A stretch of 64,000 bases of DNA from Clostridium sp. (lineage in GTDB: Bacteria > Bacillota > Clostridia > Lachnospirales > Lachnospiraceae): the NCBI GenBank assembly GCA_031275405.1, contig JAISOV010000022.1, forward strand, positions 135 to 64,134. The letters run 5' to 3'. The notes under the pieces are model-generated. The model did not search any database and was not told the DNA's origin. It saw only the letters and a list, made by a program, of their open reading frames with translations. This document shows positions 34,437 through 39,046 of the stretch, one piece after another. A program made the translations under genes and the position numbers. The stretch's first letter is position 1; every line of letters starts with the position of its first letter.

Positions 34437-34473
34437 ATATACCATGAGTCCGCAAAGCGGATTCATGGTATAT
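34437..34473. terminator. 17-bp-stem hairpin between the convergent potD and Cys-rich genes (terminator-like, no U tract)
   Basis: atataccatgagtccgc-aaa-gcggattcatggtatat pairs over 17 positions with one G-U pair. It lies 58 nt after the potD stop and 120 nt after the stop of the minus-strand gene. Confidence 0.5.
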
Positions 34474-34592
34474 GATCATTGATCGGAAACTGCTTCGCAG
34501 CTTCTGATACTTCACGGGATACTCCCGCTTGGCAGTCATCTCTCTGATAGTCGTCTCTTCGATAGTAATCTCTCTAGTTGCGCGCCCGGCTT

Positions 34593-34982
34593 CTAGTCCT
34601 CACTGCATCCGCAGGTGTCGGCGGAATAAGTCGGTCTGACGCCACGCGGCCTGTGTTCCGGTCTCGGGATGTCGCCCCTCCAGTTCGGAAGGTCATAATC
34701 CTCGCCATATCTGGCGCGCTGGTGAAACGTCCCTTCGTTTCCGTCACAGCCGCAGTTATCGTCGCAGCCATCATTACAGCCGTCGCCGCAGCCATCATTA
34801 CAGCCGTCGCCGCAGCTATCGTTACAGCCGCAGCCGTCATTACAGCCATCGTTACAGCCGCAGCCGTCATTACAGCCGCCACGACCGCCATAGCCTCCGG
34901 AACTTCTGCCGCAGGCGCCTCTGCCACCGCCGCCGAAGCTCCCTCCGCAACACAGTAACAACAGTAAAACAAGACAATTCAT
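34593..34982 (-). CDS. hypothetical Cys/Gly/Asn/Asp-repeat small protein (129 aa)
   Basis: The ATG at 34982 is preceded by gagaggaa with 8-nt spacing. The N-terminus is hydrophobic (MNCLVLLLLLCCGG) and is followed by a G-rich stretch. The core CNDGCGCNDGCNDGCGCNDSCGDGCNDGCGDGCNDGCDDNCGCDG follows. The protein has 19 Cys in 129 aa. Two other long ORFs overlap it (one + strand, one - strand) but lack an RBS. Confidence 0.55.
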   Translation of the reverse strand: MNCLVLLLLLCCGGSFGGGGRGACGRSSGGYGGRGGCNDGCGCNDGCNDGCGCNDSCGDGCNDGCGDGCNDGCDDNCGCDGNEGTFHQRARYGEDYDLPNWRGDIPRPEHRPRGVRPTYSADTCGCSED

Positions 34983-35104
34983 AGGTTAAATTCCTCTCTT
35001 CTCAGAAATACATTTCTCCCTAGGAATGTATATTTTCCCATCTTTACTGTATTTTATTCCGCGCTTCCACAGATGTGCCAGTCCCAGGGAAAATGGAAAG
35101 GTCA

Positions 35105-37096
35105 TCACCCTCTGCTGATAAAGACCTCCACGCTCCGCGCCGGAACCTCACGGCTCCGGTCCCTCCATGGATCGGAAAGAACCGCTTTGTTTCCTCCGGC
35201 CTCCTGCGCCGCCGGGTCAAGGGCTGTCCGAATCAGGGATTCCCATTCTTTTCCTCTGGGCAGCTTAGGCAGGGCGAAGGTATGCGCTTCCCAGTGCATA
35301 TTCAAGGCAACGTAAAAATAAGCGTCTTCTTCTCCCTTGTCCAAGGCGTACTTTCCGCAGTACATGACCCCGATCTGTCTGCTGCAAGGCTCCGTCACCG
35401 GACGCCACGGCGCTTCGCCGTGGTAGGACAGATCCGGATAGCCGCAGGAAAGAGTGTCCATGATCCGCAGCTCTTCCTGCCTATGCAGGATGGGATGTTC
35501 CCGCCGGAGCCGGATCAGCCGTGCCGCAAATTCATACAGGCTCTTATTTTTATCTTTTTTCTTCCAGTTCAGCCAGGTGGTTTCATTATCCTGACAGTAA
35601 GGATTGTTATTTCCCTTTTGAGAATGCCCAAACTCATCCCCCATGACGAGAAGCGGCGTTCCCTGGGACAGGAACAGCATACTCAAAGCGTTCCGGATCT
35701 GCTTCATCCGAAGCGCCATGATCTTCTGCTTGCGGCTGCCGCCCTCTTCCCCGCAGTTCCAGGTATGGTTATCGTCCTTTCCGTCCCGGTTTTCCTCGCC
35801 GTTTTCCTCGTTGTGCTTGCGCTCGAAAGATACCATGTCCATCATCGTAAAACCATAATAATTGGTGAAATAATTAATCTGTCCTGTCTTTTCCGGATTG
35901 CGCCGCATGTGGTACAGGACATTTCCCAGCATATTTTCATCCCCTTTCAGGAAACGGCGCATATCATACATGAAATCATCCCGGTACAGGGCAAGGTTAC
36001 GGTATTTCGGCACGCGGCCCCGATAAACGCGATCGGCTTCAAAATCCGCGCTCCAAAGCTTCGTGCGGGAAAACAAGGCGTCCTGCGCCAGGAGATCCGC
36101 CGGAATCTCCTGGCCGATCAGGCGGAACCCGTCCACATGATACTCCGTCACCCAGAAACGCAGGATGTCGAACATTTCGCAGGCCGGAATTTCTTTCGGA
36201 AAATAAAACTGCATGACGATTTCCATCCCGTTCTTATGGAAGTTCTTTATCATGTCCTTAAACTCCGCAGATGGCGCCTTTCCCGCCGCGTAGCCTGCCT
36301 TGGGGGCATAGTAAAAGCCTTTTTTATAGCCCCAGTAATTCAAATGCCGTATATCCGGCCTTTGCTGTTCGCCGCCCTGCGCCGTGCCTGCCGCTCCGCC
36401 CTGCGCCATCCTGCCCTGTGCCGCTCCGCCCTGCGCCATCCTGCCCTGTGCCGTGCCGCCCCGCGCCGCCTTCTCCGGCTCCGGGAGGAACAGCGACGGG
36501 CTTTCCTTTTTCAGTTCTTCCTCCGGAGAGCATTCCAGAAATTCATAAGACGGCTGTAACTCCAAGGTCGTAATCCCCAGTCCTTTCAGATACGGAAGCT
36601 TTTCGGTCAGCCCCAGGAAAGTACCCTTGTGCTTCACGCCGGAAGAGGAATGCTTGGTGAAGCCCCGGATATGCAGTAAATAGCAGATACAGTCCTCGTA
36701 GGGAAGCTGCGGGCCACGGTCGGCTTCCCAGTCGTAGCCCTCATCCGGCAGATAAGCTTTCAGCTCCGTTTCCTCCTGCCGCTGTCCGTAGGCTTTCCTC
36801 TGGGCAAAGGCCTTCCCATAAGGATCCGGTGTTATTTGATTCCCCTCATAAAAGGAGTACGAAACCTGGGATGGTTCTGTCTGCGGAAGATATTTGCCAT
36901 AAATGTTTCCGGTTCTTTCCTCCTGGGAAAAAGGCAGCTTCCGGAGCAGCTTCCCCGTCTTTCGCTCATAGAGCAGCACGCCGCAGTCGTCCGCTTCCGA
37001 AACAAAGGAAAGATACATTCCCCCGTCCACGCGGCGCGCCCCCAAGGGATACGCCCCTCCTAGCCCTCTGTCTGTCATCCTGCCTCCATCCTGCAT
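35105..37096 (-). CDS. glgX: glycogen debranching enzyme (GlgX / GH13 isoamylase-type)
   Basis: Recognised blocks are YPLGARRVDGGMYLSF (N-domain), GITTLELQPSYEF, EIVMQFYFP, VDGFRLIG, NYFTNYYGFTMMD (for which DGFT is more usual) and PLLVMGDEFGHSQKGNNNPYCQDN. The start could instead be the internal Met at aa 7. Confidence 0.88.
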   Translation of the reverse strand: MQDGGRMTDRGLGGAYPLGARRVDGGMYLSFVSEADDCGVLLYERKTGKLLRKLPFSQEERTGNIYGKYLPQTEPSQVSYSFYEGNQITPDPYGKAFAQRKAYGQRQEETELKAYLPDEGYDWEADRGPQLPYEDCICYLLHIRGFTKHSSSGVKHKGTFLGLTEKLPYLKGLGITTLELQPSYEFLECSPEEELKKESPSLFLPEPEKAARGGTAQGRMAQGGAAQGRMAQGGAAGTAQGGEQQRPDIRHLNYWGYKKGFYYAPKAGYAAGKAPSAEFKDMIKNFHKNGMEIVMQFYFPKEIPACEMFDILRFWVTEYHVDGFRLIGQEIPADLLAQDALFSRTKLWSADFEADRVYRGRVPKYRNLALYRDDFMYDMRRFLKGDENMLGNVLYHMRRNPEKTGQINYFTNYYGFTMMDMVSFERKHNEENGEENRDGKDDNHTWNCGEEGGSRKQKIMALRMKQIRNALSMLFLSQGTPLLVMGDEFGHSQKGNNNPYCQDNETTWLNWKKKDKNKSLYEFAARLIRLRREHPILHRQEELRIMDTLSCGYPDLSYHGEAPWRPVTEPCSRQIGVMYCGKYALDKGEEDAYFYVALNMHWEAHTFALPKLPRGKEWESLIRTALDPAAQEAGGNKAVLSDPWRDRSREVPARSVEVFISRG
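36391..36450. repeat. perfect 2 x 30-bp tandem duplication inside glgX
   Basis: ccgctccgccctgcgccatcctgccctgtg occurs at 36391-36420 and again, identically, at 36421-36450. Degenerate partial copies lie on both sides. The duplication encodes GGAAQGRMAQ twice. Confidence 0.95.
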
Positions 37097-37566: not shown

Positions 37567-38160
37567 ATGAGGAAAAAAATAACGGCATTCTTAATTTGTG
37601 CAATGATGTCTGTACCACAGGCAGTTCAGGCGGCAGAATATGACATAAGCGATGAAAAGCTTCAGGAACTGGCAGAAGAATTTTCTGTTGATATTGATTT
37701 ACTCCGGGAGAATATTGAATCCTTTGATGTGAATCGTGATCAATTTTCACCTTATGAGGGTGTAGGGCAAAGGAAAAGTGAGGAGAACGAAGAGTCTCCA
37801 GGAATCATACCATTTGCGATAGGCTATACATACAAGTCCAATCAAGACACCACAGCTTATGTGGCTAGCAGTACAGCAATAACATCTACAGGCGTGACGC
37901 CGCAAGTGGGGATGTGTGCGGTGAAACACACCAACGGCATTCCCTATATACCGTATGGTACTAAGCTTTTCCTAAATACAGGGAGTGTGACCATTCAAGG
38001 AAACACATATAGCTCATTTGTGGTTCAAGATTGCGGTTCCGGGAGTGGGCGGACTGATTACTGGTTTGACATTTTCTTTGGGGTCAACAATACGGCAAAT
38101 TATCATGCAGCAATTCAGTATGGTGTGATACAGAGAAGTTATCGCTATGAAACACCTTGA
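37567..38160 (+). CDS. secreted 3D-domain (MltA/RlpA-like fold) protein
   Basis: It has a signal peptide (MRKKITAFLICAMMSVPQAVQA). The C-terminal segment GMCAVKHTNGIPYIPYGTKLFLN...VVQDCGSGSG...DYWFDIFFG fits the 3D-domain pattern (AVD..IP.GT ... D.G..I.G..iDif). The gene is AT-rich. Confidence 0.65.
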   Translation: MRKKITAFLICAMMSVPQAVQAAEYDISDEKLQELAEEFSVDIDLLRENIESFDVNRDQFSPYEGVGQRKSEENEESPGIIPFAIGYTYKSNQDTTAYVASSTAITSTGVTPQVGMCAVKHTNGIPYIPYGTKLFLNTGSVTIQGNTYSSFVVQDCGSGSGRTDYWFDIFFGVNNTANYHAAIQYGVIQRSYRYETP

Positions 38161-38227
38161 GCTACGGTAGAGAGTTTTGTCCGAAAGGACAAAACTCTCA
38201 GTCGATTTGGAGAGGATGGTCATAAAA

Positions 38228-39046
38228 ATGAAAAAAAAGATTCCTGTCATAGTAGTATTATTCATTGGCATTGCGTGTATTTTGACGAGTACTATCCTGT
38301 ACGGAAATTTCAAATCGCTGGAATCTGATGAGGTAAGGATTGCTGAAGAACAGCCGGTTGAATCTGATGAGGTAAGGATGACCGGAGAACAGCCGGTTCC
38401 GAGTGCGACAGAGCAGGAACAGCCAGAGGCTGCTATCGCAGATGCCGCCAAGCAGGAACTGCCGGATCAGGTCACACTCATAGAAAGTTTAAAAATGTCA
38501 TTGCATAGCGCTCGTGAATGGGCTCCGGATGCAAAACCTTATATGGTTCATAGTGTAGACACAGTGGAAGCTCCGCTGGAAGAACGAAGCATAGAGGGGA
38601 AAAAAGAGAATTGGTCTGTGAATTACTATAGTGAATCGAAGCAGGCCAGCTATATCAGTAATGTTTTTGGTGGCATAGTAAGGCCAGGTGTTCAGACTTT
38701 GTTCGGTACTCATCTGCAATATATTGATGCAGACAACCTGGTATATGACTCTCCGGAATTGACGACATATGTACTCAGTTCTTATCATCTCCGTATTGGT
38801 AAGGGCGGCGACGAATGGATTCATGGCTTCCAATATATGCTGCAATATGGCCGTTTGGCTGACATGACGGAAGATATCTTGTATTATATTTTTTATGGAA
38901 TTTCCGAGGAAGGCAATTTGGCTAATATCATTGTTGACGCAGAAAGCGGTGTGATTCTTTTAGCGAAAGAAAAATATGGATATGACGAGAACGGAAGAGG
39001 TCTGTGGAGAGAATTGGAACAAGATGCGGAAGCTGCCTATAGATAA
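38228..39046 (+). CDS. membrane-anchored hypothetical protein, possibly with PepSY-like domains
   Basis: The ATG at 38228 follows ggagagga. An N-terminal TM segment (IPVIVVLFIGIACILTSTILY) is followed by the duplicated ESDEVR(I/M)..EQPV linker. The C-terminal IIVDAESGVILLAKE resembles the PepSY motif, but the family call is weak. Confidence 0.5.
   Translation: MKKKIPVIVVLFIGIACILTSTILYGNFKSLESDEVRIAEEQPVESDEVRMTGEQPVPSATEQEQPEAAIADAAKQELPDQVTLIESLKMSLHSAREWAPDAKPYMVHSVDTVEAPLEERSIEGKKENWSVNYYSESKQASYISNVFGGIVRPGVQTLFGTHLQYIDADNLVYDSPELTTYVLSSYHLRIGKGGDEWIHGFQYMLQYGRLADMTEDILYYIFYGISEEGNLANIIVDAESGVILLAKEKYGYDENGRGLWRELEQDAEAAYR

What the first reader, a model, noticed from the sequence alone, without database searches (positions are those of the whole stretch)
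34593..34982. Orphan small protein with a (C-N/G-D-G) Cys-rich repeat core and a hydrophobic Cys-containing N-terminus
Seen in the sequence:
- The 129-aa ORF has a good RBS (gagaggaa, 8 nt from the ATG).
- The N-terminus is MNCLVLLLLLCCGG, followed by a Gly-rich stretch.
- From residue 37 to 79 a Cys occurs every 2-4 residues: CNDGCGCNDGCNDGCGCNDSCGDGCNDGCGDGCNDGCDDNCGCDG.
- There are 19 Cys in total, and the C-terminal tail is charged and ends in TCGCSED.
- The DNA underneath is a degenerate 12/18/30-nt repeat. This also opens two other long ORFs (Ala/Val/Thr-rich), one on each strand.
- The gene stands alone between potD and glgX, with no modification, export or regulatory partner nearby.

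Inference: the composition suggests a metal- or disulfide-rich structural, spore or envelope protein, or a metallothionein-like protein. I could not place it in any family I know.
Basis: partly seen in the sequence, partly recalled or inferred. Interest (0 to 1): 0.65.

Follow-up and report, generated by a model that had tools for sequence, protein, structure and literature searches.

The report
Hidden family of cysteine-rich small proteins
The odd cysteine-rich ORF is a real gene, not an orphan: it belongs to an undescribed family of small modular proteins found next to glgX in Lachnospiraceae gut bacteria, which gene finders missed or misread in three of eight related loci; its function is still unknown.

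Summary
In detail: a 129-aa ORF (34593-34982, minus strand), RBS, 19 Cys, a 12/18/24/30-nt repeat and two overlapping ORFs.

"Orphan" is wrong. Single-sequence searches found nothing real. Following glgX homologs into eight related Lachnospiraceae loci showed a homologous small ORF at the same position. A profile of these found 71 protein clusters, all "hypothetical", none with a Pfam or NCBIfam model.

Shared plan:
- N-terminus MNC + Leu-rich helix + CC(C)G.
- A hypervariable low-complexity core: Cys/Gly/Asn, Arg-Asp repeats or His runs, punctuated by CGC. Its length varies between near-identical alleles.
- A tail ending in TCGC[ED].

An invariant 17-nt element, GAATAnnATACAGTAAA, with an AC-containing block upstream, marks the gene's own promoter. 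Gene callers missed the gene or took the wrong frame in three of eight related loci.

AlphaFold2 predicts only the N-terminal helix; the rest looks disordered.

Function is inferred. I favour a helix-tethered, thiol-rich protein that cross-links or binds metal, possibly a spore-surface component. The resemblance to a sigma-K promoter is weak, and no sporulation gene lies in the window.

The parts
34593..34982 (-). Coding sequence of the 129-aa Cys-rich small protein (stop codon included). It is a divergent member of the Lachnospiraceae 'MNC...TCGC[ED]' family.
   Evidence: ORF list. Homologs at the syntenic position in 8 distinct loci. A family HMM built without this sequence hits it as the only one of 906 six-frame ORFs of the window, at 26.1 bits. 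Purifying selection acts on this frame in close homologs.
34941..34982 (-). N-terminal module, residues 1-14: MNCLVLLLLLCCGG. That is Met-Asn-Cys, a Leu-rich hydrophobic helix, then a Cys pair and Gly.
   Evidence: 58 of 71 family clusters start with MNC; M1, N2, C3, L9 and L10 are invariant or nearly so. It is the only confidently predicted structure: a helix at residues 3-12, pLDDT about 80, and 4-13, pLDDT 86, in P0131. K/R occurs in the first 12 residues in only 3 of 71 clusters, and none has a lipobox.
34740..34874 (-). Low-complexity repeat core, residues 37-81: (C-N/G-D-G) and CG units built from a 12/18/24/30-nt tandem repeat.
   Evidence: Tandem Repeats Finder. Variation between units is mostly TGT/TGC, AAT/AAC and GAC/GAT, which is synonymous in this frame. 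In the family this region is hypervariable in sequence and length, even inside 90%-identity clusters. Predicted disordered, pLDDT below 50.
34596..34694 (-). C-terminal tail, residues 97-129: LPNWRGDIPRPEHRPRGVRPTYSADTCGCSED. It corresponds to the family tail ..PPW.DDC.C..RPEPR..YPN.SRGETCGCE..
   Evidence: Alignments A1, A2 and A4. The terminal C-G-C is invariant in the A4 and A6 alignments (53 and 62 sequences), and CGC lies within 12 residues of the C-terminus in 66 of 71 clusters. The window copy keeps W, RPE..R and TCGC.E but lacks the upstream DC.C pair.
34991..34998 (-). Ribosome-binding site GAGAGGAA, 8 nt before the ATG.
   Evidence: Sequence. Homologs carry AAAGGA(A) at the same place.
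35043..35059 (-). Invariant 17-nt element GAATAAAATACAGTAAA. I read it as the -10 region plus the transcription start of the gene's own promoter.
   Evidence: Identical pattern GAATAnnATACAGTAAA upstream of the homolog in all 9 loci compared, and once per locus in the eight loci held when the pattern was searched. It is unique in the 64-kb window, with 0.04 matches expected. It lies 21-22 nt before the ATG in 7 of 9 loci, but 60 nt here and 54 nt in L039.
35074..35085 (-). Conserved upstream block GGGACTGGCACA, the -35-like region. Its AC lies 16 nt before AATAAAATA.
   Evidence: Alignment A3. The spacing from AC to AATA is 15-17 nt in all 9 loci. There is no sigma-54 -12 element; that reading is my own from the alignment.
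34437..34473 (.). Strong inverted repeat (ATATACCATGAGTCCGC AAA GCGGATTCATGGTATAT) between the convergent potD and the small gene. It is probably a two-way terminator.
   Evidence: Sequence. The RNA fold of the 3' region gives a long hairpin, z = -2.9. The simple terminator scan did not call it because there is no T-run. L037 has a called terminator hairpin after its homolog.
35105..37096 (-). glgX-like alpha-amylase-family gene directly upstream on the same strand. It is the synteny anchor, not necessarily a functional partner.
   Evidence: Homolog search. The arrangement glgX -> DUF5662 -> small gene holds in 8 distinct related loci. The DUF5662 gene is absent from the whole window.

Best explanation
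The ORF is a real, independently transcribed gene. It is a divergent and apparently unannotated member of a Lachnospiraceae family of small modular proteins (78-154 aa) that no database has curated.

The family has three modules:
1. A nearly invariant N-terminus: Met-Asn-Cys, then about 8 Leu/Ile/Trp residues forming one short hydrophobic helix, then CC(C)G.
2. A disordered low-complexity core, punctuated by CxC/CGC motifs. It evolves quickly by in-frame repeat expansion and contraction. In the window it is (C-N/G-D-G)n. Elsewhere it is Cys/Gly/Asn, Arg-Asp/Arg-Glu repeats, or His runs.
3. A conserved tail ending in TCGC[ED].

Inferred mechanism:
- The N-terminal helix tethers or oligomerises the protein at a membrane or assembling surface.
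- The conserved tail is the interaction or nucleation module.
- The thiol-rich core works by its composition rather than its sequence. It either forms intermolecular disulfide cross-links or holds soft-metal thiolate (or His) clusters.

My favoured setting is a structural or cross-linking component of the spore outer layers, made in the mother cell without an export signal, from its own promoter. That promoter's conserved AC-N15-17-AATAnnATA arrangement resembles mother-cell (sigma-K/sigma-E type) promoters.

How sure each step is:
- Shown: gene, reading frame, family, synteny, promoter element, hypervariable core, predicted disorder.
- Inferred: tethering, thiol chemistry, the sporulation setting.
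- My sub-confidences: real gene in this frame and member of the family, 0.95; thiol-based cross-linking or metal binding, about 0.6; spore-associated, about 0.35-0.4.
For: Gene and reading frame:
- Homologous ORFs on the glgX strand at the same position in L034, L035/L036, L037, L038, L039, L040, L041 and L042-L046.
- In the 35-codon tail of L034, L035 and L037, 44 of 59 pairwise differences are at codon position 3 of this frame. Synonymous:nonsynonymous codon changes are 11:5, 15:3 and 10:6.
- In the frames of the two rival ORFs the same counts are 0-5 synonymous against 12-18 nonsynonymous.
- Variation between repeat units in the window is mostly synonymous T/C changes.

Family:
- A profile of 8 syntenic sequences finds 71 clusters at E<=0.01. 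The ten that carry an organism name are Lachnospiraceae except one MAG labelled Gastranaerophilales, and none has a Pfam domain.
- 58 of 71 start with MNC, and 61 of 71 have CGC[ED] in the last 15 residues.
- An HMM built without the window sequence recovers the window ORF as the only hit.

Own transcription unit:
- The invariant 17-nt element, with a conserved AC 15-17 nt upstream, is present in 9 of 9 loci.
- Hairpins follow the gene.

Modular and hypervariable:
- The core changes length (87-104 aa and 97-125 aa) between near-identical alleles while the termini stay constant.

Disorder:
- AlphaFold2 with the family alignment gives pLDDT 52.9 and 52.8. Only the N-terminal helix is predicted.

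Thiol or metal chemistry:
- Cys is 7.7-20.2% of residues, with recurring CGC.
- Some members carry His runs, such as HEHEHEHEHGHDHGHDHGH in L035 and HHHHHH in P0147.
- Those His runs draw weak hits to Ni/Co/Zn proteins.

Spore setting (analogy and promoter shape only):
- Mother-cell sigma factors use a CATATAAT-like -10, with -35 AC for sigma-K (PMC3789822). The variable positions of the element fall on the 'nnn' of CATAnnnTA.
- Cys-rich proteins build exosporium and crust elsewhere, and CdeC and CdeM are absent from Lachnospiraceae (PMC6101409).
- Clostridial coat proteins are lineage-specific and poorly known (bioRxiv 10.1101/2022.02.25.481979).
- CotG-like coat proteins share the same plan: conserved ends, a variable central repeat and a fixed chromosomal position (PMC9765600).
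- There is no Sec or lipoprotein signal.
Against: - There is no expression, localisation or metal-binding data of any kind.
- The sigma-K-like match is weak. The canonical first C of CATA is A in all 9 loci.
- The relaxed pattern AC-N15-17-[CA]ATAnnnTA occurs 6 times in the window against 7.2 in shuffles. The match by itself therefore means nothing, and only its conservation does.
- The same element reads as a sigma-70-type promoter in L042: TTGCAA-18-TAAAAT, 9 of 12.
- No sporulation gene was found among the 30 larger ORFs of the window that were scanned. Whether this organism sporulates is unknown.
- The neighbours (glgX, DUF5662, potABCD or a lactonase) are housekeeping or metabolic genes.
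- The window copy lacks the DC.C pair of the family tail and matches the family profile only modestly, at 26 bits with a high composition-bias term.
- Cys content is below that of classical metallothioneins, and the window protein has 7 aromatic residues.
Confidence: 0.45

Rival explanations
1. Vegetative metallothionein-like or thiol-buffer protein. The gene is read from a weak housekeeping (sigma-A type) promoter. The short N-terminal helix holds the protein at the cytoplasmic face of the membrane. The CxC-rich, sometimes His-rich, core sequesters Zn, Cu, Ni or Cd, or buffers oxidants and electrophiles. It has no link to spores.
For: - CxC/CGC motifs and 7.7-20.2% Cys.
- His runs in several members, which draw weak hits to Ni/Co/Zn proteins.
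- A disordered prediction fits a fold that forms only on metal binding.
- The promoter element passes a sigma-70-type scan in L042, and TAnnAT is conserved inside it.
- No sporulation genes nearby.
Against: - No match to any metallothionein model in Pfam or NCBIfam.
- Cys content is lower than in classical metallothioneins.
- Many members have cores dominated by Arg-Asp/Arg-Glu repeats with few Cys.
- A hydrophobic N-terminal helix is not a metallothionein feature.
- In the window, L037, L035 and L034 the -35 region (TGGCAC or CGGCAC) fits sigma-70 poorly. The scan finds no promoter where it was run, in the window and in L037.
- Invariance over 17 nt exceeds what a sigma-A -10 requires.
Confidence: 0.25
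2. Exported or lipid-anchored envelope protein. The N-terminal hydrophobic stretch acts as a very short signal peptide or signal anchor, and the Cys-rich domain is displayed outside the cell. Its hypervariability would come from phage or host pressure.
For: - The N-terminal 19-residue window has a mean Kyte-Doolittle hydropathy of 1.73, just above the usual membrane threshold.
- Cys follows the hydrophobic run in all members.
- Hypervariable repeat cores are typical of surface proteins.
Against: - K or R occurs in the first 12 residues in only 3 of 71 clusters.
- The hydrophobic run is only about 10-12 residues long.
- None of 71 members matches the lipobox [LVI][ASTVI][GAS]C.
- The sequences show no signal-peptidase I type A-x-A site (my reading of them).
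Confidence: 0.07
3. Precursor of a ribosomally made, post-translationally modified peptide (or another secreted Cys-rich peptide). Either the conserved N-terminus is the leader and the Cys-rich part the core, or the conserved TCGCE end is the modified site.
For: - The layout of conserved ends with a variable Cys-rich middle superficially resembles precursor peptides such as SCIFF in Clostridia (my knowledge).
- The gene is small and free-standing.
Against: - No radical-SAM, cyclodehydratase, lanthionine synthetase, protease or ABC-exporter partner appears next to it in the window or in the gene tables of the related loci.
- No NCBIfam precursor model is hit by 53 members.
- At 78-154 aa, with long charged repeats, it is atypical for a precursor peptide.
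Confidence: 0.03
4. Not a gene. The region would be a hypervariable non-coding tandem repeat that happens to leave frames open, or one of the two other overlapping ORFs would be the real gene.
For: - Codon-usage scores are borderline and close for frames A and B.
- Three open frames are not rare in this genome.
- No product of any of the three frames is on record for this contig.
- Gene callers chose another frame in L035/L036 and L041.
Against: - Start codon, N-terminal module, tail and stop position are conserved in frame A across loci whose GlgX proteins are only 52-57% identical to the window's.
- Substitutions concentrate on codon position 3 of frame A and are overwhelmingly nonsynonymous in the rival frames.
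- RBS and promoter element are conserved.
- No Rfam match.
Confidence: 0.02

Closest known systems
CotG and 'CotG-like' modular spore-coat proteins of Bacillus (PMC9765600; Saggese et al. 2016 as cited there)
   Same: - Small to medium proteins with conserved N- and C-terminal modules.
- A central region of tandem repeats that arose by repeated in-frame elongation and differs between species.
- Family members share chromosomal position and architecture rather than primary sequence.
- Predicted disordered.
- The repeats act by their bulk properties, as spacer or charge.
   Different: - No sequence similarity.
- CotG repeats are Lys/Arg/Ser/Tyr-rich and are phosphorylated by CotH. They are not Cys-rich.
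- CotG has no N-terminal hydrophobic helix.
- The host is Bacillus, not Lachnospiraceae.
- Spore localisation is shown for CotG and only guessed here.
Cysteine-rich spore-surface morphogenetic proteins: CdeC and CdeM (C. difficile exosporium), CotY/CotZ (B. subtilis crust), ExsY (B. anthracis) (PMC6101409)
   Same: - High Cys content.
- Assembly by disulfide cross-linking.
- Lineage-restricted.
- No export signal, because they are made in the mother cell.
- CdeC and CdeM are reported absent from Lachnospiraceae, which leaves that role unfilled there.
   Different: - No detectable homology: no Pfam hit in 4 members scanned, none precomputed for 71 clusters, and no PDB profile hit.
- Those proteins are mostly larger (CdeC about 400 aa, by my knowledge) and have ordered, self-assembling folds (CotY/CotZ).
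- This family is 78-154 aa, is predicted disordered, and has a hydrophobic N-terminal helix.
Metallothioneins (bacterial SmtA/BmtA, MymT; eukaryotic MTs) and His-rich metal stores such as Hpn (my knowledge)
   Same: - Small proteins, with CxC and CC motifs.
- Disordered without metal.
- Sequence is poorly conserved while composition is kept.
- Some family members carry His-rich runs.
   Different: - No match to metallothionein models.
- Cys is 8-20% here, against about 15-30% in metallothioneins.
- The conserved hydrophobic N-terminal helix, the conserved non-Cys tail motifs (PPW, RPEPR, YPN.SRGE) and the Arg-Asp repeat cores are all foreign to metallothioneins.
SCIFF peptides (six cysteines in forty-five residues) and YjcZ-type tiny sporulation proteins of Firmicutes (NCBIfam; my knowledge)
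   Same: - Small Cys/Gly-rich products of Clostridia or Bacilli.
- YjcZ-type proteins combine a short hydrophobic segment with Gly/Cys-rich flanks and are linked to sporulation.
   Different: - No NCBIfam hit for the 53 members scanned.
- SCIFF always sits beside its radical-SAM maturase, and none is present here.
- Both are much shorter and lack the repeat core and the TCGC[ED] tail.

Membership tests
Uncurated Lachnospiraceae 'MNC...TCGC[ED]' small-protein family (defined here; clusters P0122-P0192) | N-terminus Met-Asn-Cys + Leu-rich hydrophobic run + CC(C)G | tested here: met
   The window has MNCLVLLLLLCCGG. 58 of 71 clusters start with MNC, and N2, C3, L9 and L10 are at least 90% conserved.
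Uncurated Lachnospiraceae 'MNC...TCGC[ED]' small-protein family (defined here; clusters P0122-P0192) | C-terminal end motif (E/D/S)TCGC[ED] within about 12 residues of the stop | tested here: met
   The window ends in ..ADTCGCSED. The terminal CGC is invariant in A4 and A6, and 66 of 71 clusters have it within 12 residues of the end.
Uncurated Lachnospiraceae 'MNC...TCGC[ED]' small-protein family (defined here; clusters P0122-P0192) | Upstream tail motifs: W..D(D)C.C, then RPEPR..[FY]P.. | tested here: inconclusive
   The window keeps P.W..D and RPE..R but lacks the C.C pair. Only 40 of the 66 clusters with a terminal CGC have a second CxC 8-40 residues upstream, so this feature is not universal.
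Uncurated Lachnospiraceae 'MNC...TCGC[ED]' small-protein family (defined here; clusters P0122-P0192) | Statistically significant match to a family profile that excludes the query | tested here: met
   An HMM of 75 members built without the window sequence gives one hit among 906 six-frame ORFs of the window: 26.1 bits, E = 5.8e-4 for a nominal search space of 1,000,000 sequences, with high compositional bias.
Uncurated Lachnospiraceae 'MNC...TCGC[ED]' small-protein family (defined here; clusters P0122-P0192) | Genomic position: same strand as, and downstream of, glgX (usually glgX-DUF5662-X) | tested here: met
   The window has glgX, then a 122-nt gap, then the small gene. Eight distinct related loci have glgX-DUF5662-X. 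DUF5662 is missing from the window.
Uncurated Lachnospiraceae 'MNC...TCGC[ED]' small-protein family (defined here; clusters P0122-P0192) | Upstream element GAATAnnATACAGTAAA with AC 15-17 nt before AATA | tested here: met
   Present at 35043-35059 (minus) with a 16-nt spacing, and present in all 9 loci.
Metallothioneins | Match to a metallothionein sequence family (Pfam or NCBIfam models) | tested here: not met
   No hits at E<=10 for the window protein and 3 relatives. No metallothionein hit among 53 members.
Metallothioneins | Very high Cys content in CxC/CC/CxxC motifs, with few or no aromatic residues | tested here: inconclusive
   The window protein has 14.7% Cys, with CxC and CxxxC spacing, but 7 aromatic residues. 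The family median is 12.8% Cys.
Metallothioneins | Stoichiometric binding of d10 metal ions in thiolate clusters | not testable with these tools
   This needs recombinant protein with ICP-MS or ESI-MS.
Cys-rich spore coat, crust or exosporium proteins (CotY/CotZ/ExsY, CdeC, CdeM) | Sequence or fold homology to those families | tested here: not met
   No Pfam hit, and no precomputed Pfam domain on any of 71 clusters. No PDB profile hit. The predicted models are disordered, so a fold search would be meaningless.
Cys-rich spore coat, crust or exosporium proteins (CotY/CotZ/ExsY, CdeC, CdeM) | Mother-cell (sigma-E/sigma-K) dependent transcription | tested here: inconclusive
   The conserved AC-N15-17-AATAnnATA resembles the sigma-K consensus (PMC3789822). 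However, it lacks the first C, is no rarer than chance as a bare pattern, and also reads as sigma-70-type in L042.
Cys-rich spore coat, crust or exosporium proteins (CotY/CotZ/ExsY, CdeC, CdeM) | Physical presence in spore outer layers | not testable with these tools
   This needs spore proteomics or fusion-protein localisation.
Bacterial lipoproteins / Sec-exported proteins | Positively charged n-region, an h-region of at least about 12-15 residues, and a lipobox [LVI][ASTVI][GAS]C or an AxA site | tested here: not met
   There is no K or R before the hydrophobic run in the window protein, and K/R occurs there in only 3 of 71 clusters. None of the 71 clusters, nor the window protein, has a lipobox.
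SCIFF / other RiPP precursors | Precursor model hit and an adjacent maturase or exporter | tested here: not met
   No NCBIfam hit. No radical-SAM or other maturase appears in the Pfam scans of the window's neighbours or in the gene tables of related loci.
YjcZ-type tiny sporulation proteins | Match to the NCBIfam YjcZ / tiny-TM models | tested here: not met
   No such hit for the window protein at E<=10 or for 53 members at E<=0.1.

The most novel reading that the evidence does not exclude
The family is a previously undescribed class of bacterial protein, specific to Lachnospiraceae. Each member would be a helix-tethered, intrinsically disordered, thiol-rich module whose core is remodelled by in-frame repeat slippage from strain to strain.

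It would serve either as the missing cysteine-rich morphogenetic 'cement' of the Lachnospiraceae spore surface (the functional counterpart of CdeC/CdeM or CotY/CotZ), or as a new membrane-tethered type of bacterial metallothionein.

It has stayed largely invisible because gene finders skip it or mis-frame it.
Probability: 0.3. Interest if true: 0.7.

Novelty: new variant of a known kind. Interest (0 to 1): 0.5.

Why it matters
- Lachnospiraceae are among the most abundant gut bacteria. Many spread as spores, yet almost nothing is known about their spore coats: coat proteins are lineage-specific, and CdeC and CdeM are absent from the family (PMC6101409; bioRxiv 10.1101/2022.02.25.481979). A conserved, strongly Cys-rich protein that varies between strains and has its own conserved promoter is a concrete candidate for a surface or cross-linking component, or for a metal or thiol buffer.
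- The case also exposes an annotation blind spot. Three of the eight distinct related loci had no call or a wrong-frame call, and nothing from any of the three frames is on record for the window's own contig. Single-sequence searches of billions of proteins found nothing real. Only synteny revealed the family.
- The profile and the 17-nt promoter element built here could be used to re-annotate these genes. They could also be used to look for other genes under the same control.

Tried and rejected
1. Direct homology searches with the 129-aa protein gave nothing real.
- The word-indexed search returned no hits.
- The exhaustive phmmer search over 1.84 billion representatives returned one hit, P0121 at E = 3e-4. 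I judge it a spurious translation of a CRISPR-like repeat array: it repeats FPHTRGDVP / FSPHTWGCS / LFPTHVGMF, one repeat read in three frames.

2. The genome-contig scan with the protein gave two hits, L002 and L003. Both are short repeats in other frames of unrelated genes. L003, for example, is the opposite strand of an SLQPSLQP repeat in a Ser/Thr kinase.

3. The metagenome-contig scan gave 29 loci. All carry only generic xDGC 12-nt repeats, from freshwater, soil and marine samples with GC from 17 to 66%. None has the N-terminus or the tail, so they are not homologs.

4. Exact look-ups of all three overlapping ORFs found nothing on record. An exact look-up of potD gave one short Logan contig that ends inside the hairpin at about 34470.

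5. Curated libraries gave nothing.
- Pfam, NCBIfam, a PDB profile search and Rfam returned nothing meaningful.
- NCBIfam on 53 members returned only low-complexity SD/RD-repeat noise, such as MSCRAMM adhesins and splicing factors.

6. The codon-usage model could not separate frame A from frame B.

7. A sigma-54 reading of the CTGGCAC block was rejected, because no TTGC -12 element follows.

8. The lipoprotein reading was rejected.

9. I did not run a fold search, because both AlphaFold2 models are low-confidence outside one helix.

10. Literature searches for DUF5662 and for the family's peptide motifs found no paper.

11. The search for sporulation genes in the window found none among 30 ORFs scanned.
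Full report
**1. The observation**

The ORF is as described: 34593..34982 on the minus strand, 129 aa, ATG start.
- The RBS GAGAGGAA ends 8 nt before the ATG.
- There are 19 Cys, 13 of them between residues 37 and 79.
- A degenerate tandem repeat with periods 12, 18, 24 and 30 lies under the core.
- Two further long ORFs overlap it: 132 aa on the same strand and 126 aa on the other strand.

On intrinsic evidence alone the case for a gene is weak.
- Three stop-free frames over 360 nt occur in 4.5% of tiles of this 55.5% GC window.
Genes average 0.355.

**2. Why it first looked like an orphan**

Every search that started from the single sequence came back empty or spurious.
- Pfam and NCBIfam gave nothing at E<=10.
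- The word-indexed search of 5.8 billion proteins gave nothing, not even the protein itself.
- None of the three overlapping ORFs is on record as a called product. Yet GlgX of what appears to be the window's own contig is in the collection: P0001 is 100% identical and listed without a source.
- The exhaustive phmmer search of 1.84 billion representatives gave one hit at E = 3e-4. I read it as a translated CRISPR-like repeat array.
- Back-translated pattern scans of genomes and metagenomes returned only unrelated xDGC-type repeats, or other frames of unrelated genes.

**3. Synteny reveals the family**

GlgX homologs are at most 57% identical to the window's, so this organism has no close relative in the collection. 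I fetched the contigs that carry nine of those homologs.
- They share the order gltX, uvrD-like helicase, DUF1292 (opposite strand), glgX, DUF5662, then potDCBA (convergent) or a lactonase. L033 ends inside the DUF5662 gene and shows nothing further downstream.
- Between DUF5662 and the next gene, on the glgX strand, the other seven distinct loci carry a small ORF whose ends resemble those of the window ORF. An eighth distinct locus, L042-L046, was added later (section 5).
- One example is L037: MNCIWIILLLCCCGGNNGCGCGG...VTPPWKDDCPCDKVPPMRPEPRQSYPNISRGETCGCEE.
- The window protein reads MNCLVLLLLLCCGG...LPNWRGDIPRPEHRPRGVRPTYSADTCGCSED.

Annotation of these loci is patchy.
- The gene tables have no call in L034 and L037.
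- They have a wrong-frame call in L035/L036 and in L041.
- They have correct calls in L038, L039 and L040.

A profile of the eight sequences (A2) then found 71 clusters at E<=0.01.
- They are 78-154 aa long. Every source name given is "hypothetical protein".
- Ten clusters carry an organism name. Nine are Lachnospiraceae, including Candidatus Acetatifactor stercoripullorum (WP_318709694.1). One is a MAG labelled Gastranaerophilales.
- None has a Pfam domain.
- A profile built without the window sequence finds the window ORF as the only hit among all 906 six-frame ORFs of the window, at 26.1 bits.

**4. Which frame is real**

I compared L034, L035 and L037 over the 35-codon tail (PPW...TCGCE).
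- 44 of 59 pairwise nucleotide differences lie at codon position 3 of frame A.
- Synonymous:nonsynonymous codon changes are 11:5, 15:3 and 10:6 in frame A.
- In the frames of the two rival ORFs the same changes count as 0-5 synonymous against 12-18 nonsynonymous.
- The one antisense frame that also looks "synonymous" shares its wobble positions with frame A. No ORF of 40 aa or more lies in it in the window.

Inside the window's own repeat, the units differ mainly by TGT/TGC, AAT/AAC and GAC/GAT, which are silent in frame A. The start codon, and the sequence ATGAA(C/T)TGT, are conserved in every locus. Frame A is therefore the coding frame, and the other two ORFs are by-products of the repeat.

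**5. Anatomy of the family**

(a) N-terminus.
- It reads MNC, then about 8 residues of L/I/W/V, then CC(C)G.
- K or R occurs in the first 12 residues in only 3 of 71 clusters, and none has a lipobox.
- AlphaFold2 with family alignments predicts this as the only structured element: a helix at residues 3-12 or 4-13, with pLDDT 80-86.

(b) Core.
- Composition differs wildly between members: Cys/Gly/Asn, (RD)n or (RE)n blocks between CGC motifs, or His runs such as HEHEHEHEHGHDHGHDHGH.
- Length changes within 90%-identity clusters (87-104 aa) and between near-identical alleles (97-125 aa), while both ends stay fixed.
- It is predicted disordered, pLDDT below 50.

(c) Tail.
- It often reads W..DDC.C, then RPEPR..(F/Y)P..(S/G)R.ETCGC(E/D).
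- The terminal CGC is invariant in both family alignments.

Cys makes up 7.7-20.2% of residues, with a median of 12.8%, and the median net charge is -4. The window copy is the most Gly-rich and most regularly repeated of the members examined, and it lacks the DC.C pair of the tail.

(d) Position.
- A distant member, P0151, still follows glgX-DUF5662 although its downstream neighbour differs.
- The window has lost DUF5662 altogether.
- It has also gained two ORFs without Pfam hits between DUF1292 and glgX.

**6. Transcription signals**

- An alignment of the upstream regions shows an invariant GAATAnnATACAGTAAA (window 35043-35059, minus strand). It occurs once in each of the eight related loci held when the pattern was searched, and by eye in L042. 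It is unique in the window, where 0.04 matches are expected.
- A conserved block, (G)GGAC.TG(G)CA(A)C, lies upstream. Its AC is 15-17 nt before AATA in all nine loci.
- The element ends 21-22 nt before the ATG in seven loci, but 60 nt and 54 nt before it in the window and L039. That fits a promoter better than an RNA element tied to the RBS.
- Hairpins follow the gene.
- In three loci (L039, L040, L041) glgX and DUF5662 overlap by a few bases, whereas the small gene has its own signals.

The arrangement resembles mother-cell sporulation promoters, which have a CATATAAT-like -10, with -35 AC for sigma-K (PMC3789822). The two variable positions of the element fall in the unspecified triplet of CATAnnnTA. 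I rate this only as a lead, for three reasons.
- The first C is A in all nine loci.
- The relaxed pattern is no rarer than chance in the window: 6 observed against 7.2 in shuffles.
- In L042 the same bases pass a sigma-70 scan as TTGCAA-18-TAAAAT. No such promoter is found in the window or in L037.

**7. What it most likely does**

These points are shown:
- It is a conserved, independently transcribed gene.
- It encodes a modular protein with one short hydrophobic helix.
- Its core is compositionally constrained, fast-evolving, thiol-rich and predicted to be disordered.
- Its tail is conserved and ends in a CxC motif.

These points are inferred:
- The helix tethers or clusters the protein.
- The tail is the specific interaction module.
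- The core acts through thiol chemistry (and, in some members, His): disulfide cross-linking or metal-thiolate clusters.

I favour a spore-surface structural role, at about 0.35-0.4, on four grounds.
- The protein has no export signal.
- The promoter has a mother-cell-like shape.
- There are parallels with Cys-rich exosporium and crust proteins, and CdeC and CdeM are absent from Lachnospiraceae (PMC6101409).
- There are parallels with the CotG-like proteins, which have conserved ends, a variable repeat centre and a fixed chromosomal position (PMC9765600).

Clostridial coat proteins are known to be lineage-specific and poorly catalogued (bioRxiv 10.1101/2022.02.25.481979).

The main rival is a vegetative, membrane-tethered, metallothionein-like protein (0.25). 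It explains the His runs and CxC motifs equally well, and the two readings are not mutually exclusive. The lipoprotein/export, RiPP-precursor and "not a gene" readings are disfavoured by direct tests.

**8. Comparison with known families, and novelty**

Membership was tested by sequence for metallothioneins, CotY/CotZ/CdeC/CdeM-type proteins, lipoproteins, SCIFF/RiPP precursors and YjcZ-type proteins. None of the tests was met. The window gene does meet five of the six features I use to define the uncurated family, and the sixth, the DC.C pair, is not universal in the family. No paper in the library mentions DUF5662 or the family's peptide motifs.

I therefore class it as a new variant of a known general kind: Cys-rich, repeat-bearing small structural or metal-binding proteins. 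It belongs to a family that exists in databases only as scattered "hypothetical proteins". Interest is moderate at 0.5. The gene is real, conserved, oddly built and often mis-annotated, but its function is still a matter of inference.

Noticed in passing
L034 6010-6339; L037 3911-4300; L035 6641-7036; L041 6527-6808; window 34593-34982: Gene finders often mishandle this family. There is no call in L034 and L037. L035/L036 (73 aa) and L041 (99 aa) have wrong-frame calls. Nothing is on record for the window contig. The Cys/Gly/Asn-rich versions are the ones missed; the versions with charged cores are called correctly.
   Followed up: yes
window 35105-34982 compared with L034-L046: The DUF5662 (PF18907) gene lies between glgX and the small gene in all 8 distinct related loci that reach that far (L033 ends inside it), and it overlaps the glgX stop in three of them. 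It is absent from the whole 64-kb window by tblastn. No paper mentions DUF5662, and its sequence has no PDB relative.
   Followed up: partly
window 37567-38160 and 38177-39046 (+): Two ORFs (197 and 289 aa) without any Pfam hit lie between DUF1292 and glgX. In the related loci those two genes are adjacent, so this looks like an insertion specific to this genome.
   Followed up: no
window 36389-36467 (inside glgX): An in-frame 30-nt tandem repeat (2.6 copies, 93% match) adds about 20 residues (TAQGRMAQGGAAQGRMAQGGAAG) to GlgX. The closest homolog, P0003, lacks them. This is a second case of coding repeat expansion in this genome.
   Followed up: partly
window 34534-34575: A 15-nt tandem repeat (AGTCATCTCTCTGAT, 2.8 copies) lies in the 3' untranslated region, about 20 nt after the stop codon of the small gene. 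I have no explanation for it.
   Followed up: no
window 35004-35017 (-), inside the longer 5' UTR: Between the promoter element and the ATG, the window has about 38 nt more than most relatives. This extra stretch contains the near-palindrome AGAAAT-GT-ATTTCT, which could be a regulator site or a small hairpin. L039 has a different insertion at the same place.
   Followed up: no
window 34437-34473; L001: A long perfect-stem inverted repeat lies between the convergent potD and the small gene. The only other public contig with an identical PotD (Logan SRR14710916) ends inside this hairpin, so the region beyond it was not assembled there.
   Followed up: partly
P0121 (385 aa; hit): This database 'protein' consists of FPHTRGDVP / FSPHTWGCS / LFPTHVGMF repeated with about a 20-residue period. 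That is one DNA repeat read in three frames, most likely a translated CRISPR array. It can produce spurious hits for Cys/Gly/Pro-rich queries.
   Followed up: partly
L004-L030 (metagenome loci): Many freshwater, soil and marine contigs carry long (x-D-G-C)n 12-nt repeats in one frame. L004, at 17% GC, has CNDGCKDD repeats. L007, L021 and L022, at 64-66% GC, share a 229-237-aa open frame with a (CNDG)4-6 run. None has the family's termini, and some may be other frames of real repeat proteins.
   Followed up: partly
L035 6641-7036: One family member replaces much of the Cys core with a His/acidic run, HEHEHEHEHGHDHGHDHGH. It gives weak hits to the His-rich loops of Ni/Co efflux proteins, UreE and ZrgA. 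P0147 and P0157 carry runs of six His.
   Followed up: partly
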